A DNA stretch of 44,304 nt from an uncultured Candidatus Marinamargulisbacteria bacterium (GTDB lineage: Bacteria > Margulisbacteria > Marinamargulisbacteria > SXXA01 > CAYGHZ01). The stretch is from contig CAYGHZ010000001.1 of the NCBI GenBank assembly GCA_964349635.1, positions 1 to 44,304 on the forward strand, in the 5' to 3' direction. Shown piece by piece: positions 27,509-44,304 of this stretch (positions within the stretch are counted from its first letter, which is position 1; every line of letters begins with the position of its first letter). A model generated the notes under the pieces. It saw only the letters and a program-made list of their open reading frames with translations, was not told the DNA's origin and did no database searches. A program made the translations under genes and the position numbers.

Positions 27509-28777
27509 TTGCAGAACTCGTTTGATAGCATCGTCATCGGGGCCGGGCTATCCGGCTTGACCGCCGCTTTGCATTTGCAAAAAGCGGGGCATAAAGTTCT
27601 TATCGTCGAAAAACGAAACGTTCCCGGTGGACTTTGCGGAACGACACATTTCGACGGATATGAATTTGTCATCGCCGCCAATGATTTCGGACGGATTTTG
27701 GAACGCCAGATCAAGTCGCTGGATATCCCTTTAAAATTTAAAAAAGCTAAAACGAAATTTTTTATTAATGGGACTACACTCACGTCTCCGCCGGATCCTA
27801 AGACGCTCTTAAAATTAGCGACTTGCGCCGGAGATTTGATTCGATTTATTAAGGCGTTTAAAACTCACGAGACGCTGGAAGACGCGGTGAAAGCTACCGT
27901 CAAAGACAAAACACTTTCGGAATTTTTACTAGCCCTCGCCTACCCATTAGGAATGTTGCCTAAAGAGGTACAATTGACTTCCCTTAAAAAAACATTTTCA
28001 AAAGAATTCAATTACGGTTATGACCAGCCCACCCTGCCGGTGGGCGGGCCTCGGGCATTGGTTGACGCGATGGTTGACGCTTTTGTTCATCGCGGCGGAC
28101 AGCTGATCCTGGGAACGGACTGCACTGCTCTTGGCAAAGAGATCGTAACTGAAAAGGGGAAATTTAAAGGGGATTTTGTGGTCTCAAGCACCGGCCGCTG
28201 GGATCAGTATTCAAACGATTTTAAACCCGGGCTAGCCATTAGCATGTTTCACCTAGCCGTCAAAAAAGAACTCATTTTCCCAAAAGGGATTCACACCCTC
28301 GTTCATCTGCCTGAAGGCGTTGAGCAATGGATGAACGATATTGATTCCGGTCGGCAACCCGGCGCCTTTGGATTTCATTTGTTTCCAAGCGAACTGGGGG
28401 AAAAGGGACTCTACTACACCATCAACGTGTATTTTTATTTGCCTCGCGAAATAAACGATCTATCTCACTCAGCCGAAAATTATATATTTACAAATGCAGA
28501 AAAGATGTTGCCCGGACTTGGCGAAGCGATGATCTATAAGAAATTCATTTCCGCAGCCGATTTTCAAAAGATCCATGGACTGTCCAGCCAAGCCACACGC
28601 TTTGTGGTCTCCGGAAAATTCGATAAACCGTCTATATACGATGCCGACAAGGATATCTATTATGTTGGCAATTCCGTATATCCGGACGGTGAGCACGCAG
28701 GGGGAGCGATGCTTTCAGGGCAGCTGGCTGCTCAACACATTCTTTTAGGGGGTAAGAAGGGTGAAAAAAGAAGATGA
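27509..28777 (+). CDS. FAD/NAD(P)-binding oxidoreductase (CrtI/amine-oxidase-like superfamily)
   Basis: Has an N-terminal dinucleotide-binding motif IVIGAGLSGLTAALHLQKAGHKVLIVEKRNVPGG and a C-terminal YYVGNSVYPDGEHAGGAMLSG. TTG start. Confidence 0.7.
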   Translation: MQNSFDSIVIGAGLSGLTAALHLQKAGHKVLIVEKRNVPGGLCGTTHFDGYEFVIAANDFGRILERQIKSLDIPLKFKKAKTKFFINGTTLTSPPDPKTLLKLATCAGDLIRFIKAFKTHETLEDAVKATVKDKTLSEFLLALAYPLGMLPKEVQLTSLKKTFSKEFNYGYDQPTLPVGGPRALVDAMVDAFVHRGGQLILGTDCTALGKEIVTEKGKFKGDFVVSSTGRWDQYSNDFKPGLAISMFHLAVKKELIFPKGIHTLVHLPEGVEQWMNDIDSGRQPGAFGFHLFPSELGEKGLYYTINVYFYLPREINDLSHSAENYIFTNAEKMLPGLGEAMIYKKFISAADFQKIHGLSSQATRFVVSGKFDKPSIYDADKDIYYVGNSVYPDGEHAGGAMLSGQLAAQHILLGGKKGEKRR

Positions 28778-31240: not shown

Positions 31241-31600
31241 ATGCCTGCCATTCTTGTGGTCGATGACGAAGAAATTATTCTTCAGAGTTTTATTCGCATC
31301 CTGGAAAAAGAAGACTTAACTCTATTTACCGCCCAGGATAAAAAAGGGGCCCTTGAAAAGCTGGAAAATCCCATTTCTTTGTTTATTTGCGATGTGCGGA
31401 TGCCCGATGTCGATGGCCTCGAACTGATCAAAAACGCCAAAGAAAAAAATCCTCTTTTAAAGACCATTCTTTTAACCGGATTCGAAGACGCGACAATTCG
31501 AGAAGCCGCCGAGAAATTACATGTCGACCTATTGTTGACCAAACCCATTCGCGATATCGGGGGGTTTGTTCAAGCTATTCACCGTTTACTTAACTCCTAG
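31241..31600 (+). CDS. stand-alone response-regulator receiver domain (CheY-like)
   Basis: Contains the VVDDEE acidic pocket, the phospho-acceptor context FICDVRMPDVDG and LLTKP Lys. It is 119 aa with no output domain. It starts 2 nt after the upstream stop. Confidence 0.85.
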   Translation: MPAILVVDDEEIILQSFIRILEKEDLTLFTAQDKKGALEKLENPISLFICDVRMPDVDGLELIKNAKEKNPLLKTILLTGFEDATIREAAEKLHVDLLLTKPIRDIGGFVQAIHRLLNS

Positions 31601-31604
31601 TCCC

Positions 31605-32471
31605 ATGCGCCTCGTTTGGTTACCGGCGCTTTTACTCTTTGCTGCTTTGCCTGCATTTGGCGTCACATCAAACGTCACGGCAAAATTAGGCGCCATTTCC
31701 GGCAATAGCCGCTATCAGATTGGCGAGAAGTCGCCCGTCAGCGAACTAGTTTTCCCTTTGAACACGCTTCTTTTCCAGGCTGAAGGCGGGATCTCCTGGG
31801 AAAACGTGGTGTTTTTTCGGGTTGGCTTGGGAAAAAATATCAGCTCCTACAGCGGAAAAATGACCGATTCAGACTGGGACTCTTCGGGAAACCTGGAGAC
31901 CTACTCCGAAAGCGACTCCGATCTAAATCTTTTTACAGCCGACGCCCATTTCTTGGTGAACTGTATCGAAACGCCGGTCAATGGCCTGCGCGTGGGATTG
32001 GGCTATTATTATCAAAATTTTGATTTTACTATCAGCAACACCCGACAAACCTACCCCTCCAGCAACAAACCGCCGGAATACATTCCTGACAAAACGCTTT
32101 TATACTCCATCGTTTATCATATTCCCGTTTTTGAGATAGTGGGATATTCACATTGGCAAGCCATTCGATCTTCGCTTGCCATTGGATATTCTCCGTTTGT
32201 GACCAGCCAAGACAGCGACAACCACATTTTACGCTCCCGAGTTGGCGACGGGAACCAGCGAGGCCAGGTCTGGATTATTGACTCCCAGCTTCATTACCAG
32301 GCCACCCCTCAATTATCCTTCTCGATTGACGCGCATTATCTCAAGACGGTTGGTTTTGGGCGCCAGGTTCAAACAGAATACGGGTCTTCGCCCCGCACCC
32401 TCGGAATAATCGACCAAACGGTTGCCAGTGACCAATATTCGGTTCTATTTGGTTTAAGGCACATGTTCTAA
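31605..32471 (+). CDS. omptin-like (peptidase A26-like) outer-membrane beta-barrel protease
   Basis: Signal peptide MRLVWLPALLLFAALPAFG. MTDSDWDSSGN resembles OmpT MVDQDWMDSSN (Asp83/Asp85). SQDSDNH resembles OmpT SSDNDEH (Asp210/His212). The C-terminal GLRHMF resembles OmpT GLKYTF. I chose the start at 31605 to avoid overlapping the receiver gene. Confidence 0.55.
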   Translation: MRLVWLPALLLFAALPAFGVTSNVTAKLGAISGNSRYQIGEKSPVSELVFPLNTLLFQAEGGISWENVVFFRVGLGKNISSYSGKMTDSDWDSSGNLETYSESDSDLNLFTADAHFLVNCIETPVNGLRVGLGYYYQNFDFTISNTRQTYPSSNKPPEYIPDKTLLYSIVYHIPVFEIVGYSHWQAIRSSLAIGYSPFVTSQDSDNHILRSRVGDGNQRGQVWIIDSQLHYQATPQLSFSIDAHYLKTVGFGRQVQTEYGSSPRTLGIIDQTVASDQYSVLFGLRHMF

Positions 32472-32517
32472 TTATTCATACAAGTTTCTTGTTTCAAGCC
32501 ACGATACATGGGGTGGA

Positions 32518-33129
32518 ATGAACAAGAATAAACACATCAGTTTAACTTTGATCCTGATAATGCTGGCGGTAGCCCCGTTTTTTTCTCCAATCCAGGCTGG
32601 CCTGCAGTTCACGTCTCTTTCGCTCAACACCATCCTTCACTTTGGGTCCGGCTTTATCAATAACTTTAAAGATTTTGGCGGCCGGGACACGCGAGGCACC
32701 TTTACCAATAACCAGAAAGGCCTATCTATCTTAGGAGTTAGCTTTCAAAGCGTCGGCCAGACGATGGATGATCTCTCGCAGGGGAACATGTCATTAGCTA
32801 TGGCTATTAACGATGACGATTCGGAAGCCAAAGTCGATAAAGAACCCCTTGTTTACCCTAATCCGTTTCGCCAGGAGCAGGGAGCCCAGTTGGGTTACTC
32901 TCTCAACAAAAACATGGACCTCGAGATTCACATCTATAACATGCTCGCACAGAGAATCACCCAAAAGATTTTCTATAAGGGAGTCAACGGCGGCCACCAG
33001 GGATACAACAAGGTCGACTTCAATTTGGGCACTTGGGACGGATACGTCTTATCGGCGGGGGTTTATTTTTACGTACTGATGAATAACGGCAAGGTTTTGG
33101 CGAAGGGGAAGATGGCGGTAATCCCATGA
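32518..33129 (+). CDS. small secreted protein with T9SS-CTD / FlgD-Ig-like C-terminal domain
   Basis: Has an N-terminal signal/anchor. The C-terminal ~90 aa begin with the hallmark VYPNPF, followed by L.I.IYN..., SAGVYFYVL and K.AVIP, as in type-A sorting / FlgD-Ig domains. Confidence 0.5.
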   Translation: MNKNKHISLTLILIMLAVAPFFSPIQAGLQFTSLSLNTILHFGSGFINNFKDFGGRDTRGTFTNNQKGLSILGVSFQSVGQTMDDLSQGNMSLAMAINDDDSEAKVDKEPLVYPNPFRQEQGAQLGYSLNKNMDLEIHIYNMLAQRITQKIFYKGVNGGHQGYNKVDFNLGTWDGYVLSAGVYFYVLMNNGKVLAKGKMAVIP

Positions 33130-34058
33130 AACGACACATTTTAGCGATTTTACTTTTGCTCGGTTTATTGAGCCAGCCTGCCCAGGCTGGCGGAGACTTT
33201 TTTATGGTGTCCGACGTTGGCTCTTCAGCGCGAATGATTCGCATGGGGAATATCGAAGGATTTTCCGAATTTGCCAATGGCGTTTTTGAAAACCCCGCTT
33301 CACTCTATCGAACCAAGCGATTTTCCGCCTCTGTTTTCACGACAACGTTTATGAACGAAGTCCAATACAAAAACCTTTCGGTAAGCACGAAACTGCCGTT
33401 TGGGACCCTTGGGCTTGGCTATATGACCGCCGGGGTGGGCGCCATCCCTCGCACCTATGAATCGGTCGCAACTACCCCTGGCGAAGAGTCAACATTTGAT
33501 GTCGGCGGATATTTTGATTATAACAATACTATGGCTAAGGTCTCGTATGAGCTGTCCCAAACCGAAAATCTCCATTTTGGCACTTCCTTGACCTACTATG
33601 CCTCCACCATCGATACGCATTCCGGTCGAGGCTTTAACTTTGATGCCGGGATTGTGGCTGTCGCCCGACCTCTGACCCTTTCCGTGGTCGCCAAGAACGT
33701 CGTGCCCTCGCTCAAGGTTAATTATTCGAACGGACAGTCTGAAACCTTGCCGCTGCAAACCAGCTATAGCGCCCTGTATCATATCGGTAATTTTGATTTG
33801 CTGGGTCAGCTTCGGGCTATTGGCAATAACCAAAAATTCATGAAATCGTTTGCCGTTAACTATTCCCCTCATTTTGTTCCGTTCTTCCATATTTCCGGTG
33901 GCTATAAGGAATTTCCGGTGATACGGGATATTAAGAGCAACTATGTTTTGGGACTAGGATTAGATGTTTTCGATGTTAGCTTCGATTACGCCTACGAACG
34001 TAGCGAGCATATCGAATACAACAATAAGCACTACTTTTCCGTTGCGTTTTCGTACTAA
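33126..34058 (+). CDS. outer-membrane beta-barrel, PorV/PorQ/FadL-like
   Basis: Signal peptide ending AQAGG. SSARMIRMGN....A.GVFENPASL matches the (A/S)R..(G)MG...A......NPA.L N-terminal signature of PorV/PorQ/FadL-type barrels. It shows an alternating beta pattern and an aromatic C-terminus (VAFSY). The ATGA overlaps the upstream gene. Confidence 0.5.
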   Translation: MKRHILAILLLLGLLSQPAQAGGDFFMVSDVGSSARMIRMGNIEGFSEFANGVFENPASLYRTKRFSASVFTTTFMNEVQYKNLSVSTKLPFGTLGLGYMTAGVGAIPRTYESVATTPGEESTFDVGGYFDYNNTMAKVSYELSQTENLHFGTSLTYYASTIDTHSGRGFNFDAGIVAVARPLTLSVVAKNVVPSLKVNYSNGQSETLPLQTSYSALYHIGNFDLLGQLRAIGNNQKFMKSFAVNYSPHFVPFFHISGGYKEFPVIRDIKSNYVLGLGLDVFDVSFDYAYERSEHIEYNNKHYFSVAFSY

Positions 34059-34074
34059 CATAGGGAAAACCTGA

Positions 34075-34140
34075 ATGAAATGGGGACTAACTTTAGTTTT
34101 ATTGGCATCGCTTAGTTTCGCTTCCGCGACCCTGGCGGCC
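34075..34140 (+). other. signal peptide of the giant protein
   Basis: MKWGLTLVLLASLSFASATLAA followed by EKP: a positive N-terminus, hydrophobic core and A-x-A-like cleavage context. Confidence 0.7.
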
Positions 34141-37100
34141 GAAAAACCCGTTACCATCACCTTTCAAGCCACTCTTTACTCCCCGATCATCGGACTTTTA
34201 GAAGGCAGCCATATGGTGACCGCCGGCATTTATTCGGGCAAAAAGCCCCCGGCGATTTGGAGGGAGGGCCGGCGATCCGTTTCGTTTAAGAAGGGGGCAT
34301 TTAGCCTCATTCTTGGCGCGCAGGATCCTACGAACAACGCACTTTTACCCGCACATTTTGATATCGCCTCGCCCACGCTGGGCCTTATTATTTACGATCA
34401 GCTTTTTTTCTTTCCGATAACGTCTATTCCTTATGCCATTAAGAGTATCGTCGCTGAAGAGGCCTTGCAGGCGCCTGCGGAGGGAATTTCAGGCGATTTT
34501 ACCTCGCGCGTCGCCATTAATGCGCCTTTGTTCGTCGACCAAAAGACATTTTACGTCGACCCGCTGAAAAACCGGGTTGGCATCGGAACAACCCAGCCCA
34601 TGGCCGAATTGGATGTCATCGGCAAAATTGATTCTAAGGGCTTACTGGTTAATGGCAAAAGTTTCATCGACACCGTCGCCTGGCAGCCTAATAAGTCCGT
34701 CGTGAAAACGATTCACACAAAGACTAGCGTTGGCATCGGCACGACTCGACCGATCTTTGGATTGCATGCCACCGGCACGATTAATGCAATGGCCTATACG
34801 ATCAACGGGCAACGAATAGACGGAATTCTCGACTGGCAACATCCGGCCGTCGTCTCCGATCTTTATTTTCGCAAAGGGGGAAATATCGGCATTGGCAGTG
34901 CGGACCCCCGCTCCAAGTTGGACGTTCGAGGCTCATTGCGGGTCGGGGAAAGCGCCGATACCGTTAGCGGCAATATTCGATGGAACCCCATCACATCGAA
35001 AATTGAAGGGTTCAATAATACTCAATGGCTTCCTCTGACCGGTATCGTCGGACAGGGCGTGGCCAATAGTCCGGTGTTTTGGACAAGTTCTCAAGAATTC
35101 GGTAATAGCGCCTCATTTTTCTGGGACAGCGCTAAAAGCTATTTGGGCCTCGGGACCAAAACGCCTCGCGCTTGGTTGACTATTCAATCGGACGGGGCAG
35201 CGCCGTCGTTTATCGCTTCCGCCAACCAGAATTTGGTTTTTGTGGGCGCCAATAACAACATCGGGATCGGCACCAGCACTCCCAACCAGAAATTAAGGGT
35301 TCGCGGACTTTTAGATAGTGACGAGTTAACCATTGGCGGCCTTAATCTGAGGCTTGCTTTATCCACCGGAACATTTTGGCTTCGAAACCCCAAAGATAAT
35401 AGCTTGTTTTATACGCTAGGGAACGTCGGCATTGGCCGGCCTGATCCAGGCAGCTTATTGGAATTATCCGGTCGCAACGTCGCCGCCGGAGGTAAATCAC
35501 AAAACCCCGCCATGACCTTCTCGTCCTCATCCGCCAGTTTCACGATGGGAGCGGATTTGGCCGATAGCGGCGTCTTTAGAATCGAAGCCGGAAAAGTGCT
35601 TGGCGTCAGTACGCCTTTATTTATCGCTCTCGAGGATCGATTGGCTATCGGAATCCGCCATCCGCAGGCGAACTTGCATGTCAGCGGAAACGCCGGAGTC
35701 GTTTTAGCCGGAAAATTTTTTGGCTCGCCCGAATCGTTTGGAATTCAGCAGGCGCTGGATAAAAGAGAACCGGGTGTGGTCATTATTACGAAGAATATTC
35801 CCGCGGAAGGTCCCGGCACACGAATGCTTTGGTTTGCCAAGCGCGCCGCCTTTCGAGCCGGCCACTTGGACACCCTGGGCCTGTCGGGCGGCAAAGAATG
35901 GAACGAAGACAATTTAGGAAAGTTTTCGGTTGGTTTTGGCCATAATACGCGTCCGGGAGGAGCTGTCTCCGCTGTTTCGGGGGGCCAATCCAATACGGCG
36001 GATGGCGCGTATGCCACCGTTTTGGGCGGGTCTGGCAATAGCGCTGCGGGCGATTTTAGCGTCGCCGGCGGCCAACGCGCCAAGGCGCTTCATGCCGGTA
36101 GCTTTGTCTGGGCGGATTCTCAAAGCCGAGACCTTGTCTCCCATCACGAAAATCAGTTTCTTATTCGCGCCCAAGGCGGGGTTGCGATAGGAACCACCCA
36201 GACTCTTTTTAACGATCAGCGCGTCGCGTTGACTGTGGCTGGCAAGGCGGTGCTTGGGAATGCATTTGTTTCCTCACCCCAACAGATTAACGAAGCCCTT
36301 TCCGCCGAACTTCGAAACGACCTTCGCAGACACAATTATATTAACGATGACGGCAGTTTTACCTCGCAATTCTCTTCGCTGAATCCCCTTCAGGTAGACC
36401 CGACTCACAATGCCTACGCTTTCTTTATGAGGACCGTTTTGACCACAATTTATGACTCATCGATCATCAAAGCCGGGATTGTGGTTAAGAACACCGGGAA
36501 GGTCGCGATAGGCGCCGCCGATCCCGGGAAAAGCCGGCTCTTAGTCTCCGGCGGAGCGGTTCATATTGGATTGCCGACCGCGACCTCAAACGGAAATGTT
36601 GTGGTGCGTTCCTCTGCCGATCTTCCCAATATCTTTATGGCGCACGGCGTTAAGGACAATGCCAAAAATCCCGCGATGGCGGTGGTGGATCTGGGGCACA
36701 CCGGATTTGGCCTGTTTCCGACTATTTTTACCGCCATTCAAAAGCCCGGGCTTCAAGTCGGCAGCGGAAATATCGCCGCAACGGCCTATAAACTGCCGGA
36801 CAACACCTCGCTGGGCGTGGTTCCGATTGAGCCGTGGGAAATTGTATTGGCCACCCCTAATGTCTATTTCCCGACGGGCAACATCGAACATATGCGAACT
36901 CATCCCGGAAACGTGGGTATTGGCACCACATTGCCCAAATCCGCTTTCGAGATTTCCAACATCGGCAGCGTCCAGTTTGACACCCCCAAAAACGCGGCCA
37001 TGTCGATTCAGTCATTTACAATGGGCATCAATCATTTGTTACCTGATGTTTTCCGAGTCGAAAAGAATTTGACTCTGGATAGCGCAAGTCCTCTATTGAC

Positions 37101-40100
37101 ATTAAAAAATGCAACTATTGGGATGGGAATCCTTAACCCGCAAGCGCAATTGCATGTAGGCGCCACCGCCCTTTTTAATGGCACGGTGCGCTTCACCCCA
37201 ACGCCAATTCCCAATGCGCCGGTGGTTCCCCCGTTTGGATTCAGCCCCGCCCCGGCCGACACCTCCTATATCGCTACGGCGCCCACGGTCAATGTCACGA
37301 CACTTTTTGTAAACCATGAATTGTTTGAAGCGTCCGGAAGTAAATGGAATGTATTAAGCAATAACGACATCTTCAAACCGGCCATTGGAAGCTTCGTGGG
37401 GATCGGCACCACTCAACCTCAAACCATGCTGGCCGTTATCGGAACGATCAACGCTACCAAACTCGTGGTCGCCAAAAATCTGAAAGTAACCAATGTCCTC
37501 CGCTTAGGGCAGCTTAATTTTCGGGACGGTGGCGATCTAGCCAGTCTCGTTGTTAAGAACGGGAAATTGGTTCAGCAGGACACGATTTTTGTTTCCGATA
37601 CGTTGTCTGCCGGATCCGGCTCCGGAGGCAAGATTGCCTTTTGGGTTGAAGATCCGACCGTGGCGTCTCTTTCTCTGTTGGCTGAGACCCATTTTGTTTG
37701 GACCAGTCCGACCCCCTCCAAAGCCGGAACGCTTAGTCTGACTGGCAATTTTGCCGTATCCAACACGCGCACGGCGGCTTCTAGCTTTAGCGTCAAAAAT
37801 GACTCGATCCTCGGGACGGCCAACGCCAATTCGGCCTATACCATTACCTCAGGGATTGGGCACAACGGTTTTTATAACCTCCATTCCCGCGACTTCTCAA
37901 ACTCCAAAATTACGATCGGCATTGATTCGTGGCTCGGTTCTCCGGCGACTTCCGAGATTACGGGCGCTAAGGTAGTCGTGGCTAACCGACCGGGCGTGCT
38001 CCTGACGCAAAACGGCTCGGCCCGAGGTCTCACGATTGACGTTTCTAAAGTCAATGTTCAGGCCGCCGGTGATCGCGGATTCAAATATGCCGCATTATTT
38101 AACGGAAACGTCGGTATTAATACCTTTCCGGTTCCGGATCCCCTTTCGCAATATATCTTGGACGTGAAGGGAACCGTCGTTGCAACGCAATTCAACATCA
38201 CAAAGCGTCTTTCGGTTAGTACGATCAATGTTCAAACCAATGTGTTGCGAGTGACCGATGCGGGCAAGGTCGGCATCGCTACACAAACTCCCAAAACCGC
38301 CATTGAAATTATCGGAACTGTTCTGGCCAAGCAATTCAAGGTCAAAGGAGCCGACATTACGAATCTCGATATACGTCAAGGCAGCTTGGTCGTCAACACG
38401 CAGCAACCTAATAGCGTCGGCATGGGCACATCGGCGCCCGGCGCTCAGCTGGAGATTCGAAGAGATTTCTCGAGCACTCCGGCCTCTGACTATTCGGCGC
38501 AAGTTATTAGTGCGAATGCCCAAAGTATCACGCACAACATCACCGCCGTGGATCTCGATATTCAATCTGCGGATTTTAGAAATATATTAGGCAAGCCGGG
38601 CGAACCCCATATCGCGACCGGGATCAATATCAACCTGTCGGGAACGGCAGCCACCGAAAATGCGGTCATTACCGGCTTCAAGGCGATCATGAACCCCGCC
38701 GACGTTACACGCAATGCCGCCGCGATCTTGTTGGGCGGCAATGTCGGCGTCAACATTTCGGAACCGACAGTTTTATTAGATATTTTGGGCACAATCCGCG
38801 CCAATAACGTGGTTCAAACCAACTTATTAACCAAGCAGAAACGCGCTTCCTTTGGCCGCCTGGATTTGACCACACCTAACGTTAGCATCACCGGCGACAC
38901 GTTGATCGCGAAAGATATTCGGGTTTCTACCTTTAATGCGCTTGCGTCAGATGGCGCTACTCAAAGCAAGCTGATTGTTAATCAAAAACTCAATTTGCCA
39001 GGGATTCTTCTCAACGTTGCCGGAACGTGGCTGGGAAAAACCATTTCGGTCAACCAAACTGTAACGGCAAAGCAGGCTCAATATCATGACAATGCAATCG
39101 CCGTTCGGGGCCATTTTGACGGCGTCGGCCTTGGTCAAAGCGCACCTACGAAAGGCCTTGTCGTGTCCAACACGTTAACTGCCAAGCGTATGGTTGTTAG
39201 AAACAGCCTCAACTCGCGGTCGATTCAGTTCCATACCACCGGAGTGATTTCCGATTTGAACGGAAACATCGGCATTAATACGTCGGTAGCCAGCAACCGT
39301 CTTCATATCAATCCTGTTCTTTCAAGCAACCCTGCATTCAATAGCGCCGACAATACCACGTGGCAAGCCCTTAGGGTTCATTCCACAACCTCCACGATTA
39401 ACGGCATAGTTTTTGTGCCCGAATCGGGCACAGCGACAGACACCGGCGCCGGCATTGCCGCGCTACGAACGGTTAGGGGCTCTCATTTGGCAATTATTAC
39501 GGACCCAGATAACGGATTGCCCGTCGAACAGGTTCGGATTACGAATGCCGGTAACGTCGGCATCGGAACCACGGCGCCGGACCGGTTGTTGAAGGTCGCC
39601 GGTACAGCGCGATTTGAAAACGATTTGACTCTCTCGTCGCCCGCACAACTCAATGCCTCGGTTATTCAGGGCCGTAGCGGATCGGGCATTACCATACCTA
39701 ATCTGCTCGCGATCACCGCCACCGCAAACGTCTCCGCCAATGTCATTACGGATAAATTTATTTCGATTCGCACCCTGACAAAACCGGGTAGTGTGGTAGA
39801 CGCGGGCGCCTTATTTGACAACGGCGGCCTGTTTTACCAATTTACGACATCGGGAAATTTGACTCAGTTTTTGTCCAATAAGACAGGGACCATCCCTTTC
39901 TTTAACGACAAGCAAAAACTGACCGACACGTCGGCGCTATCCTGGACCGCAAGTTCCGGAATCTTTCGGGTGGGTACCGCCAATATGAAATTAAGAAACA
40001 AACCCTTGGTTGACGTGGTTAATACCATCCCGTCCAAGAATCTTATTGCGACGCCGTTTACCGCCCATTCCATTCGACTGTCCTTTTTGGATCGCCCAAT

Positions 40101-43100
40101 CGACGCCAGCTCGCAATTCGGCAAAACACTATTTGCAGGTCTAAATATCAATTTACCCAAACAGTATATCCCTCTCACCGAAACGGCCCGGGGATTGGCT
40201 ATTAGTGTTGTAAGCCTAAATGCGGTGAGCAGCACGCCGTTACCTTCCGAAGAAGATTTCTCAATCGAAGGGCGAAAATTTGCCGCTTCGTTTGTGGGTG
40301 GCGCCGTTGCCATTATCGCCTCGCCTAACGTTGCGTTGCGGCCCAGCGCCGATCTCATGGTGGTTGGTTATGGCTCGCATATGGACGCCCTTAGAATCGG
40401 CGACGGGCTTGCTGTTGATCCGTCGGGCAGAGTGGGAATTGGAACCACGCTACCTACCGCAAAAACAACGATTAAAGGCAACGGAATTGTACTGCAAGCC
40501 CAAGATAGCCTAGGCATCGAATTGATGAAGATTCGGGATAACGGCTATGTCGGCTTCGGCGTCTCCCGGAATGTGGCCCAAATGACCGAAATAGCGGGAA
40601 CGGTCAGCGCCAACGTCATGAAAGCAGGTCGCCTCATAGGTTCGATTTTGAGCGCCGGAGGCTCGAAGTTAGTCGTTCTGGCCAATAAGAACGTGGGGAT
40701 CGGAACAAGCACCCCGGCGGCTCAATTTGAAAATCAGCAAATTATTTCAAGCCCGACTGACCCCCGAACCATGCTTGAAAAAATTGAGCAACGCCTTGGC
40801 ACAACTATCATCGCCAATCTCACCGGCCTTTCGATTGTGGTAACCAGCAATTCGCTTAGCAATACGTTTGGGCTGGTTGGAACCCCTAAGACTGCCCTTG
40901 GACTGAATATCGCCGCTACTCAGCTTCAATTGCATCCTAGCGCCAATGCCGTTGGCCTGCGCGTCACCGTTCCAAATATCGCCGTTAGCCGAAACGCCGC
41001 TATTTTACTGGGTGGAAACGTCGGGATCGGGACTACCACCCCCACGGCTAGTTTGGCGATTGTAGGCACGCTGCGCGTGTCAGGGCCGACATTTTTCACG
41101 TCTAGTTCGGCATTCAGTACCACGCAGATTGCGTCGTTTAACCGGATGGTAGTCACAGCTGGTGCGCCAAATATAAATACCGCTACTTTCAAAGGCCTGG
41201 TCACCGTCACCAAAAACATGACCTTCGCCAATAGTGTTTCTTTATTTAAGAAACTTACCGGACGAGTTTCCGCCGGCGGCATCGTTGCCGGTCGCGGTCA
41301 AATCGCCAACGTCGCCGTTGCCACGGTCAACCGCACGGCTACCCGATTCAACATGGTTGGCAAGGCTAAATTTACCGGCTTGCTGGTAAAAAATACACTC
41401 TTCTCCAACACCATTACGGCCAACGCCGGCATTACAGTCACTTCGCCCATGATCATCGACGGAGCGGCCACGGTCACCCACAATGCTTTCACGAATTTCC
41501 TTTCGTTAAACTCGATCGCCAATCCCGCCCAGAATGTGTCGGAATATTTGTTTACCTATTCAAATCAACTTCGCTACCGTTCCGGCGGAGTAACTGCCAA
41601 TCTTAGCGCAAGCGCCTCGGGCGTGCCCGGCCAGTTGCCCTTTTATGACCAATCAAAATCCGTTAGCGGCAACACTTTCTTAAACTGGGCCATTAATAAT
41701 CAGTCCCTGGTATCCACGCTAAATGTCCGATTGATGGCTCTTAAATCTACGATTGGCTCAGCCGTTTCCGGCGTCCATGACGCGCAACGCCTAGTCCTTA
41801 AGTTCCTGGATCGACCGCAAAATACCGGCGTTGTTAATCAAGGGGATTACCTGTTCGCGGGCCTTCATGTTATGTCGACCGGCAACACCACCGTCACCCT
41901 CAACGAAACGATGACCGGACTGCGGGTGAGCGTGGCGTCTCTTAATGCGCAAAGCTCGACCATATTGCCCCCTGATGAGGGCGGCTCGATCATTTCCGGC
42001 CAAAAATATGCCGCGACGTTTTTAGGCGGCGGCCTGAGCATTGCTACCAAACCAACCAAAGGCGTGGTTACGGGCAATGCCTCGCTCTATGTCAATCACG
42101 GATTCACCTCGAACCCTGCGTTTCGGATTGATTCACCGACGTCTAACCTGTTTGCCGTCTACCCCGGATTCGTGGGTATCGGCTCTACAACCTATGGCGG
42201 CCGATTAACGGTGACCTCGAATCTAGAAGTGCTATCCGGCGGATTAAGTCGATTTAAAGTCACCCCCGCAGGTCAAATCGGAATCGGAACGTCGGAGCCT
42301 GGCGCGAATCTCCATCTCGTCGGCTCGTTTAAAGTTACGTCTAACGCTGTGACCCGAATGATGATCAATTCCGTGGGACAGATCGCGTTTAATCGCGCAA
42401 CGTCGGACGCTTCCCTTCGAGTAAGTGGCGACGCACAACTAGGCAATGGATTGTGGTTATCATCCGGCAAGGCCAGTATTGGTCGTATCGCAAGCACTTA
42501 TTATCCGTTAGCGGTTTCCGGCAACATCGTTTCCGGGCAACAAATTTTCCCAACAAATCGAATTCTGGCCTGGTCGACCTCGGCCAATATCGTTGAACGG
42601 GCCGGCAATGAAGTGATGCGCATCACAGACCAAAAATCTCTTGCAATAGGCACTAAATTACCCAGCGCAAGCCTTCACGTCTTTGCCGCGGCGCCAAAAA
42701 ATATTTTCCATCTCAGCAAATCCGCCTCACCCAATATTATGGTTATCACCAACACGGGGCTTATCGGACTTGGTACTCACCTTCCCTCCGCCAACCTTCA
42801 TATTCTTGGCAAGTTAAAGGCTAATCGGATCATTGACCGGCCGACACTACTGATCGCGCCTAATATTATTGTGACCAACAACAAGACTGGCGCGAATAAC
42901 TTTAAGATCGCCAATCAAGTCACCTCCGGCGAAGCGGCGACTGGCTTTGCGTCCTCGATTGCCTTATCCAGTGACAGCGATAAATCGTTGATGGGTCTTT
43001 CCATAAAACTAAAATCCACCGTGACACAGAACAACCCGCGAGTTGTCGGCCTTCGGGTTAACAACGCTCTCTTCTCCGAAGACGCCAATCTCGCCACCGA

Positions 43101-44304
43101 TGACGGCGTGAAATATTCCGGCATCTTTATGGGTGGCAATGTCGGGATTGGCACAGATACCCCGGCGTACCCTCTCGATGTTAAATCCACGAACTTGAAT
43201 GGCATCGCATTAAATATGGGTGCCATTGCCGCGCTGATTAGCTCCAACAACGTTTCACCCGGCGGCGCGATCCAACGAGGATCAATGTTAATTGTCTCGG
43301 GCAATGGAACAGCTCTCAAGGTCGAAACCATTCCGACCGAAGCCTTCAAAACAATCGCCTACGAAAGCTCGGGTGCCCCGCAAGGGTATTATCAGGTCGA
43401 TGACACTAAAGCCTCGACACTAATGACCCAATTGAAATCCGGCGGCATTATTAACTCGTCTTACCAATTGATTCCCGCCAGCCTTACCGCTCTTAAAACA
43501 GCCTTGGGAGCCTATGGAAACTACGTCGACGGCAACTTTGTTTCGACGCAAAACGTTTTCCGGGCGTTGGCGCCTTACCTTCAAAAAAGCTTTATTTCCC
43601 TCACGCCGACGGGTAACGGTGCAGTTCTTGGTCAATTAGGCACGATAACTCGCAATACAATCGTGATCAGCACTGGCACCGGACCGCTTTTGCCCGAAAT
43701 CAACGCCGGCGCGGCGGTGGGAAGCAAGGTCAAAAATGCCTTTGCCTTTACCGGACGGGTCGGCATCAATATGAGAAAAGCCGATACCATTCAAAATGTT
43801 TTAGACAAGACCTTGGTGGTCAACGGCGATATGAAAGTCGGCATTACGCAGGAAGGCTTCGTTCAGGATCAAACCCGGTTATATTTCTCGGGTGGCCCGA
43901 CAATCGCCCCCGTGGTCAACTCGGACAACACCAACCCGATGTTTATTGCGCGCCACAACGACAACGTAAATGTCACCAGCTTGCAAATCAGCGTCGGAAC
44001 CGATGCCCAAAGCCCCACCAAGCCGGACGCCAAATTCCGGGTGGGTTATACGCAAAACAATGCGTTTAACAGCGTCTTTGACGTTCGCGTCAGCACGATC
44101 AGCCAGTTCCCCGACCACATCAACACCGGCCTGCTTGACCCTGCCAGCCTTTCCAACGACCCCGCCGGATTTGTCGGCGTGGGCACCAGCAATGCCAAAG
44201 CGACGCTGCATGTCGTAGCCGACAAAAGCTATTTGGACCCTACTGGTACCGGGGCCAACCTTATCAATACCTTTGTAACCAATAATGTCTCCATCATCCA
44301 AAAT
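34075..44304 (+). CDS. giant secreted repetitive fibre/adhesin-like protein, 5' part only (3,410 codons visible; continues beyond the window)
   Basis: I hand-translated every codon from the ATG at 34075 to 44304 and found no in-frame stop. The window ends on a codon boundary (..NNVSIIQN). All track ORFs in this span are short, and the plus-strand ones all lie in a different frame. It has a signal peptide, recurrent protein motifs and a coherent amino-acid composition. Confidence 0.9.
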   Translation, partial: MKWGLTLVLLASLSFASATLAAEKPVTITFQATLYSPIIGLLEGSHMVTAGIYSGKKPPAIWREGRRSVSFKKGAFSLILGAQDPTNNALLPAHFDIASPTLGLIIYDQLFFFPITSIPYAIKSIVAEEALQAPAEGISGDFTSRVAINAPLFVDQKTFYVDPLKNRVGIGTTQPMAELDVIGKIDSKGLLVNGKSFIDTVAWQPNKSVVKTIHTKTSVGIGTTRPIFGLHATGTINAMAYTINGQRIDGILDWQHPAVVSDLYFRKGGNIGIGSADPRSKLDVRGSLRVGESADTVSGNIRWNPITSKIEGFNNTQWLPLTGIVGQGVANSPVFWTSSQEFGNSASFFWDSAKSYLGLGTKTPRAWLTIQSDGAAPSFIASANQNLVFVGANNNIGIGTSTPNQKLRVRGLLDSDELTIGGLNLRLALSTGTFWLRNPKDNSLFYTLGNVGIGRPDPGSLLELSGRNVAAGGKSQNPAMTFSSSSASFTMGADLADSGVFRIEAGKVLGVSTPLFIALEDRLAIGIRHPQANLHVSGNAGVVLAGKFFGSPESFGIQQALDKREPGVVIITKNIPAEGPGTRMLWFAKRAAFRAGHLDTLGLSGGKEWNEDNLGKFSVGFGHNTRPGGAVSAVSGGQSNTADGAYATVLGGSGNSAAGDFSVAGGQRAKALHAGSFVWADSQSRDLVSHHENQFLIRAQGGVAIGTTQTLFNDQRVALTVAGKAVLGNAFVSSPQQINEALSAELRNDLRRHNYINDDGSFTSQFSSLNPLQVDPTHNAYAFFMRTVLTTIYDSSIIKAGIVVKNTGKVAIGAADPGKSRLLVSGGAVHIGLPTATSNGNVVVRSSADLPNIFMAHGVKDNAKNPAMAVVDLGHTGFGLFPTIFTAIQKPGLQVGSGNIAATAYKLPDNTSLGVVPIEPWEIVLATPNVYFPTGNIEHMRTHPGNVGIGTTLPKSAFEISNIGSVQFDTPKNAAMSIQSFTMGINHLLPDVFRVEKNLTLDSASPLLTLKNATIGMGILNPQAQLHVGATALFNGTVRFTPTPIPNAPVVPPFGFSPAPADTSYIATAPTVNVTTLFVNHELFEASGSKWNVLSNNDIFKPAIGSFVGIGTTQPQTMLAVIGTINATKLVVAKNLKVTNVLRLGQLNFRDGGDLASLVVKNGKLVQQDTIFVSDTLSAGSGSGGKIAFWVEDPTVASLSLLAETHFVWTSPTPSKAGTLSLTGNFAVSNTRTAASSFSVKNDSILGTANANSAYTITSGIGHNGFYNLHSRDFSNSKITIGIDSWLGSPATSEITGAKVVVANRPGVLLTQNGSARGLTIDVSKVNVQAAGDRGFKYAALFNGNVGINTFPVPDPLSQYILDVKGTVVATQFNITKRLSVSTINVQTNVLRVTDAGKVGIATQTPKTAIEIIGTVLAKQFKVKGADITNLDIRQGSLVVNTQQPNSVGMGTSAPGAQLEIRRDFSSTPASDYSAQVISANAQSITHNITAVDLDIQSADFRNILGKPGEPHIATGININLSGTAATENAVITGFKAIMNPADVTRNAAAILLGGNVGVNISEPTVLLDILGTIRANNVVQTNLLTKQKRASFGRLDLTTPNVSITGDTLIAKDIRVSTFNALASDGATQSKLIVNQKLNLPGILLNVAGTWLGKTISVNQTVTAKQAQYHDNAIAVRGHFDGVGLGQSAPTKGLVVSNTLTAKRMVVRNSLNSRSIQFHTTGVISDLNGNIGINTSVASNRLHINPVLSSNPAFNSADNTTWQALRVHSTTSTINGIVFVPESGTATDTGAGIAALRTVRGSHLAIITDPDNGLPVEQVRITNAGNVGIGTTAPDRLLKVAGTARFENDLTLSSPAQLNASVIQGRSGSGITIPNLLAITATANVSANVITDKFISIRTLTKPGSVVDAGALFDNGGLFYQFTTSGNLTQFLSNKTGTIPFFNDKQKLTDTSALSWTASSGIFRVGTANMKLRNKPLVDVVNTIPSKNLIATPFTAHSIRLSFLDRPIDASSQFGKTLFAGLNINLPKQYIPLTETARGLAISVVSLNAVSSTPLPSEEDFSIEGRKFAASFVGGAVAIIASPNVALRPSADLMVVGYGSHMDALRIGDGLAVDPSGRVGIGTTLPTAKTTIKGNGIVLQAQDSLGIELMKIRDNGYVGFGVSRNVAQMTEIAGTVSANVMKAGRLIGSILSAGGSKLVVLANKNVGIGTSTPAAQFENQQIISSPTDPRTMLEKIEQRLGTTIIANLTGLSIVVTSNSLSNTFGLVGTPKTALGLNIAATQLQLHPSANAVGLRVTVPNIAVSRNAAILLGGNVGIGTTTPTASLAIVGTLRVSGPTFFTSSSAFSTTQIASFNRMVVTAGAPNINTATFKGLVTVTKNMTFANSVSLFKKLTGRVSAGGIVAGRGQIANVAVATVNRTATRFNMVGKAKFTGLLVKNTLFSNTITANAGITVTSPMIIDGAATVTHNAFTNFLSLNSIANPAQNVSEYLFTYSNQLRYRSGGVTANLSASASGVPGQLPFYDQSKSVSGNTFLNWAINNQSLVSTLNVRLMALKSTIGSAVSGVHDAQRLVLKFLDRPQNTGVVNQGDYLFAGLHVMSTGNTTVTLNETMTGLRVSVASLNAQSSTILPPDEGGSIISGQKYAATFLGGGLSIATKPTKGVVTGNASLYVNHGFTSNPAFRIDSPTSNLFAVYPGFVGIGSTTYGGRLTVTSNLEVLSGGLSRFKVTPAGQIGIGTSEPGANLHLVGSFKVTSNAVTRMMINSVGQIAFNRATSDASLRVSGDAQLGNGLWLSSGKASIGRIASTYYPLAVSGNIVSGQQIFPTNRILAWSTSANIVERAGNEVMRITDQKSLAIGTKLPSASLHVFAAAPKNIFHLSKSASPNIMVITNTGLIGLGTHLPSANLHILGKLKANRIIDRPTLLIAPNIIVTNNKTGANNFKIANQVTSGEAATGFASSIALSSDSDKSLMGLSIKLKSTVTQNNPRVVGLRVNNALFSEDANLATDDGVKYSGIFMGGNVGIGTDTPAYPLDVKSTNLNGIALNMGAIAALISSNNVSPGGAIQRGSMLIVSGNGTALKVETIPTEAFKTIAYESSGAPQGYYQVDDTKASTLMTQLKSGGIINSSYQLIPASLTALKTALGAYGNYVDGNFVSTQNVFRALAPYLQKSFISLTPTGNGAVLGQLGTITRNTIVISTGTGPLLPEINAGAAVGSKVKNAFAFTGRVGINMRKADTIQNVLDKTLVVNGDMKVGITQEGFVQDQTRLYFSGGPTIAPVVNSDNTNPMFIARHNDNVNVTSLQISVGTDAQSPTKPDAKFRVGYTQNNAFNSVFDVRVSTISQFPDHINTGLLDPASLSNDPAGFVGVGTSNAKATLHVVADKSYLDPTGTGANLINTFVTNNVSIIQN
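34570..44220 (+). repeat. about 30 dispersed protein-level copies of the motif G-N-V-G-I-G-T-x-x-P-x-x-x-L-x-V-x-G
   Basis: Strict GN[VI]G[IV][GN] copies start at 34879, 35419, 36907, 38104, 38737, 39262, 39550, 41014 and 43135. Looser copies include NRVGIGTTQPMAELDVIG at 34570, QIGIGTSEPGANLHLVG at 42274 and FVGVGTSNAKATLHVVA at 44170. Codons differ between copies, so there is no long DNA-level repeat. Confidence 0.8.
35815..36195 (+). other. YadA-head / Hep_Hag-like repeat segment within the giant protein
   Basis: GTRMLWFAKRAAFRAG...WNEDNLGKFSVGFGHNT..GGAVSAVSGGQSNTADGAYATVLGGSGNSAAGDFSVAGGQRAKALHAGSFVWADS...NQFLIRAQGGVAIGT. The short G-x-x-N-x-A-x-G repeats and the FVW.DS...NQF.IRA.GGV ending are typical of trimeric-adhesin-head / tail-fibre-like proteins. 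Confidence 0.5.

What the first reader, a model, noticed from the sequence alone, without database searches (positions are those of the whole stretch)
31241..44304. Candidate dedicated outer-membrane module (receiver, omptin-like protease, CTD-bearing small protein, PorV/PorQ-like barrel) co-oriented directly upstream of the giant gene
Five genes on one strand are separated by -4 to +46 nt: a receiver-only response regulator (31241), an omptin-like barrel (31605), a 203-aa secreted protein with a VYPNPF-type T9SS-CTD/FlgD-Ig-like domain (32518), a PorV/PorQ/FadL-like barrel (33126, ATGA overlap), and then the giant ORF 17 nt later. In Bacteroidota, PorV-type barrels shuttle CTD cargo, and giant adhesins such as SprB have cognate PorP/SprF-type partners encoded next to them. 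The arrangement here suggests a self-contained unit for export, anchoring or proteolytic maturation of the giant fibre, possibly under phosphorelay control. No T9SS core genes are visible in the window. This combination with an omptin-like protease is not one I recognise as described.
Basis: inference. Interest (0 to 1): 0.75.

Follow-up and report, generated by a model that had tools for sequence, protein, structure and literature searches.

The report
Barrel, adaptor and giant fibre cassette
In Margulisbacteria, a little-known bacterial phylum next to Cyanobacteria, a giant fibre protein resembling a phage tail fibre is always encoded right after a PorV-like outer-membrane barrel and a small protein carrying a type IX-style sorting domain, which suggests an undescribed way of mounting huge fibres on the cell surface.

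Summary

Three things change. (1) The organism is Margulisiibacteriota, not Bacteroidota: all 28 related species-level loci belong to that phylum. (2) Only three genes form a conserved unit. CTD protein, barrel (4-nt overlap in 19 of 21 loci) and giant/large fibre recur in 16 loci including the window, plus paralogous cassettes. The regulator and omptin have no homologue within 10 kb of any other cassette, even in the closest relatives. (3) The giant protein has no CTD. Full-length homologues (about 2,900-5,650 aa) have a Sec signal peptide, phage tail-fibre and trimeric-adhesin-head modules, and a C-terminal self-cleaving intramolecular chaperone (Peptidase_G2) plus coiled coil. The window lacks about the last 245 aa.

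Best reading: the barrel holds the adaptor's CTD, as PorV/PorQ hold PorU/PorZ, and the adaptor roots the trimeric fibre. This part is inferred. Whether T9SS core genes exist in this phylum could not be tested. New variant of a known kind; interest 0.65.

The parts
31241..31600 (+). Receiver-only response regulator (119 aa). It has a canonical acidic pocket (D8, D9), phospho-acceptor D51, T79 and K101. It is a neighbour specific to this lineage, not part of the conserved cassette.
   Evidence: PF00072 E 3e-20. No homologue within 10 kb of any related cassette. Key residues read from the translation.
31605..32471 (+). Omptin-family outer-membrane protease (288 aa) with a signal peptide and an intact catalytic quartet. 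It is a lineage-specific neighbour.
   Evidence: PF01278 43.1 bits against a gathering score of 22.6. BLASTP to E. coli OmpT gives E 1e-8, with D88/D90 aligned to OmpT D83/D85 and D205/H207 aligned to D210/H212. No homologue near other cassettes, and none in a metagenome scan.
32518..33129 (+). Small secreted adaptor (203 aa). It has a signal peptide, a region of about 80 aa with low predicted confidence that carries motifs conserved among type-I cassettes, and a C-terminal T9SS type-A-like CTD beta-sandwich (aa 112-203). It is a conserved cassette member.
   Evidence: TIGR04183 30.4 bits against a cut-off of 23. YPNPF, GVYFY and KGK..P motifs are conserved in 21 homologues. AF2 pLDDT exceeds 90 for aa 100-203, and Foldseek hits include PorU and a T9SS substrate CTD. 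NCBI names homologues 'T9SS type A sorting domain-containing protein [Ca. Margulisbacteria]'.
33126..34058 (+). PorV-fold outer-membrane beta-barrel (310 aa). Its start overlaps the adaptor's stop by 4 nt (ATGA). It is a conserved cassette member.
   Evidence: NF033709 E 1e-13 and PorQ E 3e-10, both below cut-off. AF2 pLDDT 87, pTM 0.81. Top Foldseek PDB hits are PorV chains 8gl6_F (TM 0.74) and 6h3i_F (TM 0.71), ahead of FadL/TodX at about 0.57. 92 homologues were found, and the great majority of the named ones are Margulisbacteria.
34075..44304 (+). The 5' 3,410 codons of a giant secreted fibre protein, with about 245 C-terminal residues lying beyond the window. It has a signal peptide, a conserved N-terminal region of about 730 aa, 18 'GNVGIGTxxP' modules, a YadA/UspA1-like head-repeat segment (aa 605-717) and no cysteine.
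   Evidence: Open frame. Motif count and composition. PHROG tail-fibre families at 2e-15 and 7e-11. UspA1 match E 4e-4. 171 representative homologues below 1e-30, with full-length members of about 2,900-5,650 aa. Colinear with P0116 over the whole length, ending about 245 aa short. Homologue C-termini match PF11962 Peptidase_G2 at 32/25.9/26.2 bits against a gathering score of 25, followed by a coiled coil.

Best explanation
The real unit is a three-gene cassette characteristic of Margulisiibacteriota.

(1) A small Sec-exported adaptor. Its C-terminal half is a T9SS type-A-like CTD beta-sandwich. Its N-terminal ~80 residues are poorly predicted on their own.

(2) A PorV-fold outer-membrane barrel, translationally coupled to the adaptor through an ATGA overlap.

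(3) A Sec-exported fibre of about 3,650 aa. It is built from phage-tail-fibre-like modules and a trimeric-autotransporter-head-like segment. In full-length homologues it ends in a self-cleaving intramolecular chaperone (Peptidase_G2 type) followed by a coiled coil.

Proposed mechanism (inferred, not shown). The C-terminal chaperone nucleates trimerisation and is then cut off, as in phage phi29 gp12 and endosialidase-type tail spikes. The C-terminus is therefore unavailable for a sorting domain, so the CTD is supplied in trans by the adaptor. The barrel binds that CTD non-covalently, as PorV and PorQ hold the uncleaved CTDs of PorU and PorZ, and as PorP/SprF barrels hold their cognate adhesins. 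The adaptor's N-terminal segment binds the fibre's conserved N-terminal domain. The fibre is thus rooted at the outer membrane with its variable distal part pointing outward, for adhesion to surfaces, hosts or prey.

The receiver and the catalytically intact omptin are neighbours found only in this lineage. They may add local regulation or processing, but they do not belong to the conserved system.
For: Family and fold assignments.

Conservation: the CTD-barrel-giant order was found in 16 loci including the window, and all 28 species-level loci are Margulisiibacteriota. There is a 4-nt overlap between adaptor and barrel in 19 of 21 loci, and a 3-57 nt gap before the fibre gene.

Paralogous cassettes occur in the same genomes (L005/L027, L006/L019, L012/L031, L029/L033). 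There the adaptor and barrel are followed by other large proteins, one set ending in Peptidase_G2.

In an NJ tree the barrels cluster by partner type rather than by genome, as expected for cognate sets.

A further barrel paralogue sits next to an S8 protease that carries its own TIGR04183 CTD, showing that barrel-CTD pairing is a general theme in the phylum.

The giant family has a signal peptide and its best-conserved stretch is the N-terminal ~730 aa. It contains tail-fibre modules and TAA-head-like repeats. Its C-terminus is an IMC domain plus coiled coil, with no CTD hit even at E <= 1.

Published precedents for barrel-CTD anchoring: PMC9143113 and PMC12618676.
Against: No binding, localisation or expression data exist. 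The barrel scores below NCBIfam's PorV-family cut-off (51.6 against 90). The adaptor's beta-sandwich also matches many generic Ig-like folds. The adaptor-fibre contact is pure inference, and the adaptor's N-terminal region has low pLDDT. How a trimeric fibre of about 3,650 aa per chain would cross the outer membrane is unexplained. Whether a SprA/Sov-type translocon exists in this phylum was not testable. The window itself lacks the fibre's C-terminus, so the IMC domain is inferred from colinear homologues. Pairwise-identity correlations between the three proteins cannot be separated from shared phylogeny.
Confidence: 0.5

Rival explanations
1. Canonical T9SS with hitch-hiking cargo. Margulisbacteria encode a full T9SS (SprA/Sov, PorK/L/M/N, PorU) elsewhere. 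The small protein is an ordinary T9SS substrate. The periplasmically assembled fibre binds it and is carried through the SprA translocon using the adaptor's CTD as a secretion signal in trans. The cassette barrel then acts as the cognate shuttle, as SprF does for SprB.
For: The CTD passes the TIGR04183 cut-off. The barrel's best structural matches are PorV chains taken from SprA complexes. Other CTD-bearing enzymes exist in the phylum. A separate 'barrel-alone' PorV/PorQ-like clade could be a general shuttle. T9SS is known to export giant, folded adhesins (PMC9143113, PMC12618676).
Against: T9SS has been reported as restricted to Bacteroidetes (PMC4793230). No paper links Margulisbacteria with T9SS. 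No core T9SS gene appears in the window or in the ~20-kb loci whose genes were listed. Secretion of a CTD-less protein by piggy-backing on a CTD protein is not an established T9SS mode (my knowledge).
Confidence: 0.25
2. The five-gene module as proposed by the first reader. The receiver, omptin, CTD protein, barrel and giant gene form one functional unit, in which phosphorelay controls expression or assembly and the omptin matures the fibre.
For: Spacing is tight in this window (+4, +46, -4, +16 nt) with no detectable terminator or promoter in the gaps. The omptin has an intact catalytic quartet and a signal peptide, so it would share the outer membrane with the barrel.
Against: No receiver or omptin homologue lies within 10 kb of any of about 30 related loci. 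The closest relatives have DUF218 or other genes upstream, with 99-704 nt of intergenic space before the adaptor gene. The co-directional run in the window continues upstream into metabolic genes. The fibre family already carries its own maturation protease, the IMC domain.
Confidence: 0.1
3. A T9SS-independent two-partner-like export system. The PorV-fold barrel, with the CTD protein as plug or usher, is itself the outer-membrane conduit for the unfolded fibre chains.
For: The cassette is self-contained and recurs without other secretion genes nearby. FadL/PorV-type barrels have lateral openings (my knowledge).
Against: A small barrel of about 14 strands with an N-terminal hatch has no precedent as a polypeptide translocon. 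An IMC-driven fibre folds from its C-terminus, which fits poorly with export that starts at the N-terminus.
Confidence: 0.1
4. The genes are unrelated neighbours or a phage remnant. Either the barrel is a FadL-like nutrient channel and the small protein a generic Ig-domain protein, or the giant gene is a prophage tail fibre.
For: FadL/TodX are the second-best structural matches. The beta-sandwich matches many Ig-like folds. The giant protein hits PHROG tail-fibre families.
Against: Synteny is conserved, with start/stop overlap, across many species and paralogous cassettes. All three proteins have signal peptides. The flanks are housekeeping genes and no other phage gene is present. The CTD carries T9SS-specific sequence motifs.
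Confidence: 0.05

Closest known systems
PorU-PorV and PorZ-PorQ pairs of the Porphyromonas gingivalis T9SS attachment complex
   Same: A PorV/PorQ-fold barrel is paired with a protein whose type-A-like CTD would be retained and used as a non-covalent outer-membrane anchor. The barrel's best PDB matches are PorV, and the adaptor's fold matches PorU's CTD region.
   Different: Here the CTD protein is only 203 aa, with no enzymatic or large passenger domain. The pair is encoded as an overlapping gene couple directly upstream of a giant fibre gene. The phylum is Margulisiibacteriota, and association with a SprA translocon is unknown.
SprB-SprF and other type-B CTD adhesin / PorP-like shuttle pairs (Flavobacterium johnsoniae; PMC9143113, PMC12618676)
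   Same: A giant surface adhesin is encoded next to its own cognate FadL/PorP-like barrel. Several paralogous barrel-partner sets occur per genome.
   Different: The giant protein here has no type-B or type-A CTD; the CTD sits on a separate small protein. The barrel gene precedes the fibre gene rather than following it. The fibre is of phage-tail-fibre type with an IMC domain rather than a SprB-type repeat protein.
Phage tail fibres and tail spikes with C-terminal intramolecular chaperone domains (phi29 gp12 Peptidase_G2; endosialidase/T5 L-shaped fibre Peptidase_S74), and cellular 'tail fiber domain-containing proteins'
   Same: PHROG tail-fibre hits, a Peptidase_G2 C-terminus in full-length homologues, and distant relatives carrying PF13884. 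These imply trimerisation followed by self-cleavage.
   Different: The protein carries a Sec signal peptide, is chromosomal with housekeeping flanks, is about 10 times longer than typical phage fibres, and is coupled to an outer-membrane barrel/CTD pair instead of a virion baseplate.
Trimeric autotransporter adhesins (YadA/UspA1)
   Same: A segment (aa 605-717) resembles the UspA1 head repeats, and the product is presumably a long trimeric surface fibre.
   Different: Pfam scans of four homologue C-termini listed no YadA-type membrane-anchor family. The anchor would have to be supplied in trans.
Omptins (OmpT, Pla, PgtE)
   Same: The Pfam Omptin model is passed, and the Asp-Asp and Asp-His catalytic pairs align.
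   Different: It is only 24% identical to OmpT, far below the NCBIfam equivalog cut-offs, and comes from a phylum remote from Enterobacteriaceae. Its substrate is unknown, and it is not conserved with the cassette.

Membership tests
T9SS type-A C-terminal sorting domain (TIGR04183 / PF18962) | Profile HMM score above the curated cut-off | tested here: met
   TIGR04183 scores 30.4 bits against a cut-off of 23. The Pfam version of the model is below its cut-off (19.3 against 27). A minority of homologues carry a precomputed PF18962 hit, and two are named as this family by NCBI.
T9SS type-A C-terminal sorting domain (TIGR04183 / PF18962) | Located at the extreme C-terminus, with an Ig-like beta-sandwich fold and conserved motifs | tested here: met
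   The domain spans aa 112-203 of 203. YPNPF, GVYFY and KGK..P are conserved in 21 homologues. AF2 pLDDT exceeds 90, and Foldseek hits include PorU 6za2 and the substrate CTD 8glk_D, alongside many generic Ig folds.
T9SS type-A C-terminal sorting domain (TIGR04183 / PF18962) | Recognised and exported by a T9SS translocon, then cleaved by PorU or retained on PorV/PorQ | not testable with these tools
   This needs whole-genome HMM scans for SprA/Sov, GldK-N and PorU, plus experiments. None of these genes was seen in the window or in the loci whose genes were listed, which is too little sequence to conclude absence.
PorV/PorQ/PorP (FadL-like T9SS outer-membrane shuttle barrels) | Profile HMM above the curated cut-off | tested here: not met
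   NF033709 scores 51.6 bits (E 1e-13) against a cut-off of 90. PorQ NF033711 scores 39.9 against 220. A few homologues hit PF11751 PorP_SprF.
PorV/PorQ/PorP (FadL-like T9SS outer-membrane shuttle barrels) | PorV-like barrel fold | tested here: met
   The AF2 model has pLDDT 87 and pTM 0.81. The best PDB matches are PorV chains 8gl6_F (E 9e-11, TM 0.74) and 6h3i_F (TM 0.71), and FadL/TodX are clearly lower at about 0.57.
PorV/PorQ/PorP (FadL-like T9SS outer-membrane shuttle barrels) | Binds a CTD-bearing partner | not testable with these tools
   Only genetic evidence is available: a 4-nt overlap with the CTD gene in 19 of 21 loci, and a second barrel-CTD protease pair in L003.
SprB/SprF-type adhesin-shuttle pair | The giant adhesin carries a type-B (or type-A) CTD at its C-terminus | tested here: not met
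   The C-terminal 450 aa of four full-length homologues gave no PF13585 or PF18962 hit at E <= 1. Instead they matched PF11962 Peptidase_G2 and ended in a coiled coil. Forty-five homologue C-termini share the same ending. The window's own C-terminus lies outside the window.
Tail-fibre-type proteins with a C-terminal intramolecular chaperone (Peptidase_G2 / Peptidase_S74) | IMC autoproteolytic domain at the C-terminus | tested here: inconclusive
   For homologues: PF11962 scores 32.0, 25.9 and 26.2 bits (gathering score 25) and 22.3 bits in a fourth, and 34.2 bits in the L003 cassette protein. The matches cover only part of the model, and no PDB sequence match was found. The window ORF ends about 245 aa before this domain.
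Tail-fibre-type proteins with a C-terminal intramolecular chaperone (Peptidase_G2 / Peptidase_S74) | Homology of the shaft to phage tail-fibre families | tested here: met
   phrog_9942 at 2e-15 and phrog_18345 at 7e-11, both annotated tail fiber protein. Distant cellular relatives are named 'tail fiber domain-containing protein' and carry PF13884.
Trimeric autotransporter adhesin | C-terminal YadA-like membrane anchor | tested here: not met
   The Pfam tables for four homologue C-termini list no anchor family at E <= 1. Only the head-like repeats match UspA1.
Omptin (PF01278) | Pfam gathering score and the catalytic Asp83/Asp85/Asp210/His212 (OmpT numbering) | tested here: met
   43.1 bits against 22.6. 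D88/D90 and D205/H207 align with the OmpT residues in a BLASTP alignment of E 1e-8. The identity of the catalytic residues comes from my knowledge of the OmpT structure literature.
Response regulator receiver | Receiver-domain HMM and phospho-acceptor residues, with no output domain | tested here: met
   PF00072 E 3e-20, covering aa 4-104 of 119. D8/D9, D51, T79 and K101 were read from the sequence.

The most novel reading that the evidence does not exclude
The CTD-barrel interaction works here without any T9SS translocon. Margulisbacteria, a phylum beside Cyanobacteria and far from Bacteroidota, would use stand-alone pairs of a PorV-fold barrel and a CTD protein as modular outer-membrane sockets. 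Into these they plug either enzymes (CTD in cis, such as the S8 protease in L003) or giant phage-fibre-like trimeric adhesins (CTD in trans on a 200-aa adaptor). That would make the CTD/shuttle module an independent and possibly older invention that the Bacteroidota T9SS later incorporated. It would also define a new route for displaying giant fibres.
Probability: 0.25. Interest if true: 0.85.

Novelty: new variant of a known kind. Interest (0 to 1): 0.65.

Why it matters
T9SS-style sorting domains and PorV-type shuttles are treated as a Bacteroidota (FCB) speciality.

Here both occur as a tightly coupled gene pair in Margulisbacteria. They are dedicated to a family of 3,000-5,600-aa fibres that fold like phage tail fibres.

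If the barrel-adaptor pair really anchors or exports the fibre, three things follow. It is a new solution to attaching a protein whose C-terminus is consumed by a self-cleaving chaperone. It gives a handle on the origin of the CTD/shuttle part of T9SS. It also offers a concrete candidate for the surface filaments, and for the attachment or symbiotic lifestyles, reported for uncultured Margulisbacteria. This includes the thin tubular structures seen on Ca. Ruthmannia eludens (10.1101/568287), which that paper attributed to a chaperone-usher system.

The result also explains part of the high incidence of very large genes noted for this phylum (10.1101/2023.11.21.568195).

Tried and rejected
- A homologue search with the full 3,410-aa giant protein timed out. 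The 800-aa N-terminal query was swamped by low-complexity word matches and returned almost no true orthologues. The exhaustive representatives search solved this.
- The diverse barrel alignment A1 had no stretch conserved enough for a locus scan. The closer set A2 worked.
- PDB sequence searches with the omptin-like protein, the barrel profile and a homologue's IMC region gave nothing useful. Fold comparison was needed.
- A metagenome scan for relatives of the omptin-like protein found none, so its wider distribution is unknown.
- Exact-cluster look-ups of window proteins returned singleton, unnamed clusters. The phylum assignment therefore rests on the homologues' source genomes.
- Mirror-tree correlations between adaptor, barrel and fibre (Pearson 0.75-0.90, Spearman 0.18-0.64) were judged uninformative, because shared phylogeny explains them equally well.
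- The aminotransferase gene upstream of the cassette in both the window and L033 looked like a possible link. The two belong to different alpha-oxoamine synthase subfamilies, so it was dropped as coincidence.
- Literature searches linking Margulisbacteria with T9SS or type IX secretion returned nothing.
- The prophage and nutrient-channel readings were considered and rejected (see rival explanations).

Full report
**Observation**

- receiver, 31241-31600
- omptin-like protein, 31605-32471
- a 203-aa protein, 32518-33129
- a 310-aa barrel, 33126-34058
- an ORF starting at ATG 34075 that stays open for 3,410 codons to the window end

The gaps are +4, +46, -4 (ATGA) and +16 nt.

Profile searches confirm each family call:
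- PF00072 receiver: E 3e-20.
- PF01278 Omptin: 43.1 bits against a gathering score of 22.6.
- TIGR04183 T9SS type-A sorting domain: 30.4 bits against a cut-off of 23. The Pfam equivalent is sub-threshold.
- NF033709 PorV/PorQ family: E 1e-13, but below its cut-off (51.6 against 90).
- The giant ORF has no Pfam or NCBIfam hit.

The co-directional run does not begin at the receiver gene. An aminotransferase-GNAT fusion gene ends 2 nt before it, and a FAD oxidoreductase gene overlaps that one. The rest of the window holds housekeeping genes. A simple promoter/terminator scan shows nothing above background.

**Whose genome**

The barrel has 92 homologues. The great majority of the named ones are Candidatus Margulisiibacteriota or Marinamargulisbacteria; one row carries an archaeal label, probably a mis-binned genome. 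A scan of one genome per GTDB species with a barrel alignment returned 28 loci. All are from that phylum or from unnamed 'bacterium' MAGs such as UBP8_UBA817. The window's own proteins form unnamed singleton clusters. The assignment is therefore by homology and shared synteny, but it is consistent. The organism is not a member of Bacteroidota.

**What is conserved**

I called six-frame ORFs in all fetched loci and searched them with the window's proteins.

- The order small CTD protein, barrel, giant-protein homologue is present in 16 loci including the window.
- The CTD gene's stop overlaps the barrel's start by 4 nt in 19 of 21 loci that have both genes.
- The gap before the fibre gene is 3-57 nt.
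- Other loci carry the adaptor-barrel pair followed by different large proteins (888 to more than 2,400 aa). One such set ends in a protein with Peptidase_G2 at 34 bits.
- A third group has the barrel alone.
- Several genomes hold two cassettes. In a neighbour-joining tree their barrels fall into different clades according to partner type. This is the pattern expected for cognate sets.
- In L003 a further barrel paralogue (weak PorQ/PorV2 hits) is followed by an S8 protease whose own C-terminus passes TIGR04183. Barrel-CTD pairing is therefore a recurrent theme in the phylum.

By contrast, neither the receiver nor the omptin has any homologue within 10 kb of any related locus. The closest relatives found (barrels 50-57% identical) have DUF218 or unrelated genes upstream, with 99-704 nt of intergenic space before the adaptor gene. 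A metagenome scan for omptin relatives found none.

**The parts**

*Barrel.* An AlphaFold2 model built from 23 homologues (pLDDT 87, pTM 0.81) matches PorV best. The top hits are PorV chains from the Flavobacterium SprA complexes: 8gl6_F (E 9e-11, TM 0.74) and 6h3i_F (TM 0.71). FadL and TodX follow at TM about 0.57.

*Adaptor.* It has a signal peptide. Residues 26-100 are of low confidence, yet carry motifs conserved among giant-type cassettes. Residues 100-203 form a confident beta-sandwich. Foldseek returns generic Ig-like folds, among them PorU and a T9SS substrate CTD. The T9SS-specific signal lies in the sequence: YPNPF, GVYFY and the terminal KGK..P. NCBI already labels two homologues 'T9SS type A sorting domain-containing protein'.

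*Omptin.* BLASTP against E. coli OmpT gives E 1e-8. It aligns D88/D90 and D205/H207 with OmpT's D83/D85 and D210/H212. The enzyme is therefore probably active.

*Receiver.* It has the canonical acidic pocket, phospho-acceptor Asp, Thr and Lys.

**The giant protein**

- An exhaustive HMMER search of 1.84 billion representatives with the first 1,200 aa found 171 proteins below 1e-30. Full-length members are about 2,900-5,650 aa, typically 3,450-3,800. Their best-conserved stretch is the N-terminal ~730 aa.
- All inspected homologues start with a signal peptide. They end in a shared '...VGRAWESS...VGF.FS...' segment followed by a coiled coil.
- The C-terminal 450 aa of four homologues match PF11962 (Peptidase_G2, IMC autoproteolytic cleavage domain). 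Three are at or just above the gathering score. None has a CTD hit, even at E <= 1.
- The window ORF is colinear with the 3,774-aa homologue P0116 over its whole length and stops about 245 aa short of homologue C-termini. The complete protein should therefore be about 3,650 aa, and the missing part is the IMC domain and coiled coil.
- Within the window, the protein has 18 'GNVGIGTxxP..L.V.G' modules and no cysteine. It hits PHROG tail-fibre families at 2e-15 and 7e-11. A segment at aa 605-717 resembles the UspA1 trimeric-adhesin head (E 4e-4).
- Distant relatives are 'tail fiber domain-containing proteins' with Peptidase_S74.
- Everything points to a trimeric, phage-fibre-like surface filament. 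It is neither a SprB-type T9SS adhesin nor a classical trimeric autotransporter, because the Pfam tables for the homologue C-termini list no YadA-type anchor.

**Mechanism**

*Shown.* The gene order, the coupling, the family and fold assignments, the phylum restriction, and the absence of a CTD on the fibre family.

*Established knowledge.*
- IMC domains drive trimerisation and then cut themselves off (phage phi29 gp12, endosialidases).
- PorV and PorQ hold the uncleaved CTDs of PorU and PorZ.
- PorP/SprF-like barrels hold cognate type-B adhesins such as SprB (PMC9143113, PMC12618676).

*Inferred.*
- The fibre's C-terminus is spent on the chaperone, so the sorting or anchoring domain is provided in trans by the small adaptor.
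- The barrel binds the adaptor's CTD.
- The adaptor's N-terminal segment binds the fibre's conserved N-terminal domain.
- The fibre is thereby rooted at the outer membrane.

How the fibre crosses the outer membrane is open. It might hitch-hike through a SprA-type translocon, if the phylum has one. I could not test for T9SS core genes. The only systematic survey I could read found T9SS solely in Bacteroidetes (PMC4793230), and no paper links Margulisbacteria with T9SS.

The receiver and omptin may regulate or process the system in this one lineage. The comparative evidence does not place them in the module.

**Comparison and novelty**

The closest known arrangements are the PorU-PorV and PorZ-PorQ pairs and the SprB-SprF type of cognate adhesin-shuttle pair. 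This cassette differs from both in five ways:
- the CTD sits on a separate 200-aa protein
- the fibre is of phage tail-fibre type with an IMC domain
- the barrel-adaptor pair is translationally coupled and lies upstream of the fibre gene
- the phylum is outside the FCB group
- the barrel fails the curated PorV-family cut-off

I therefore describe it as working like a PorV/PorQ-type CTD anchor, without filing it as a T9SS component. I found no description of it. West-Roberts et al. only note that Margulisbacteria have many very large genes. A study of the marinamargulisbacterial symbiont of Trichoplax saw thin tubular surface structures and attributed them to a chaperone-usher system.

**Verdict**

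It is a new variant of a known kind. Interest is 0.65.

Noticed in passing
L003:6756-9237 (minus strand; GCA_050250935.1): This is a second kind of barrel-CTD pair. A weak PorQ/PorV2-like barrel paralogue (312 aa) is immediately followed by an S8 subtilase (530 aa). The subtilase's own C-terminus passes TIGR04183 and also matches the C-terminal region of PorU. The pair lies divergent from an adaptor-barrel-fibre cassette.
   Followed up: partly
L002:10001-10948 and loci L018, L020-L026: A distinct clade of 'barrel-alone' PorV/PorQ/PorP-like proteins (PF11751, NF033709 at 57 bits) has no adjacent CTD gene or fibre gene. In L002 it sits among housekeeping genes. It could be a general shuttle if the phylum has a T9SS-like pathway.
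   Followed up: partly
window 28761-31238 (+) and 27509-28777 (+): An 825-aa fusion joins an alpha-oxoamine synthase (BioF/Kbl/serine-palmitoyltransferase family; PRK07505-like, 267 bits) to a C-terminal GNAT/Acetyltransf_6 domain. Its start overlaps the end of a CrtI-like FAD amine oxidoreductase gene. This may be an amino-lipid or similar pathway directly upstream of the receiver gene. L033 also has a BioF-like gene upstream of its cassette, but from a different subfamily, so that is probably coincidence.
   Followed up: partly
window 34075-44304 (protein aa 605-717): A YadA/UspA1-like head-repeat segment (GG.sN.A.G..s...GG) is embedded in the otherwise tail-fibre-like giant protein. Many unrelated large proteins in the representative library match just this segment at 44-50% identity, so it looks like a widely shuffled module.
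   Followed up: partly
window 34075-44304: The 3,410 translated residues contain no cysteine at all. They are rich in G, A, T, S and N (about 45% together).
   Followed up: no
window 25384-26514 (-) and 26657-27451 (+): Two divergent ORFs (376 and 264 aa) both give weak, sub-threshold hits to the protein-glutamine gamma-glutamyltransferase (TGL) family. No other annotation was found.
   Followed up: no
window 22787-23652 (+): Two small ORFs without family hits (112 and 176 aa) sit between the two permease genes of an otherwise standard Opp/Dpp-type ABC peptide transporter operon (20223-25401).
   Followed up: no
window 3732-6644 (-) and 9743-11317 (-): Two large ORFs of 970 aa and 524 aa have no Pfam or NCBIfam match. 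The region from about 3000 to 9000 shows unusual AT skew, swinging from -0.17 to +0.28.
   Followed up: no
10.1101/568287 (Ca. Ruthmannia eludens, Marinamargulisbacteria): Electron microscopy in that paper shows thin tubular structures connecting the symbiont to the host vacuole membrane. The authors attribute them to a chaperone-usher system. The giant fibre cassette described here is an untested alternative candidate.
   Followed up: no
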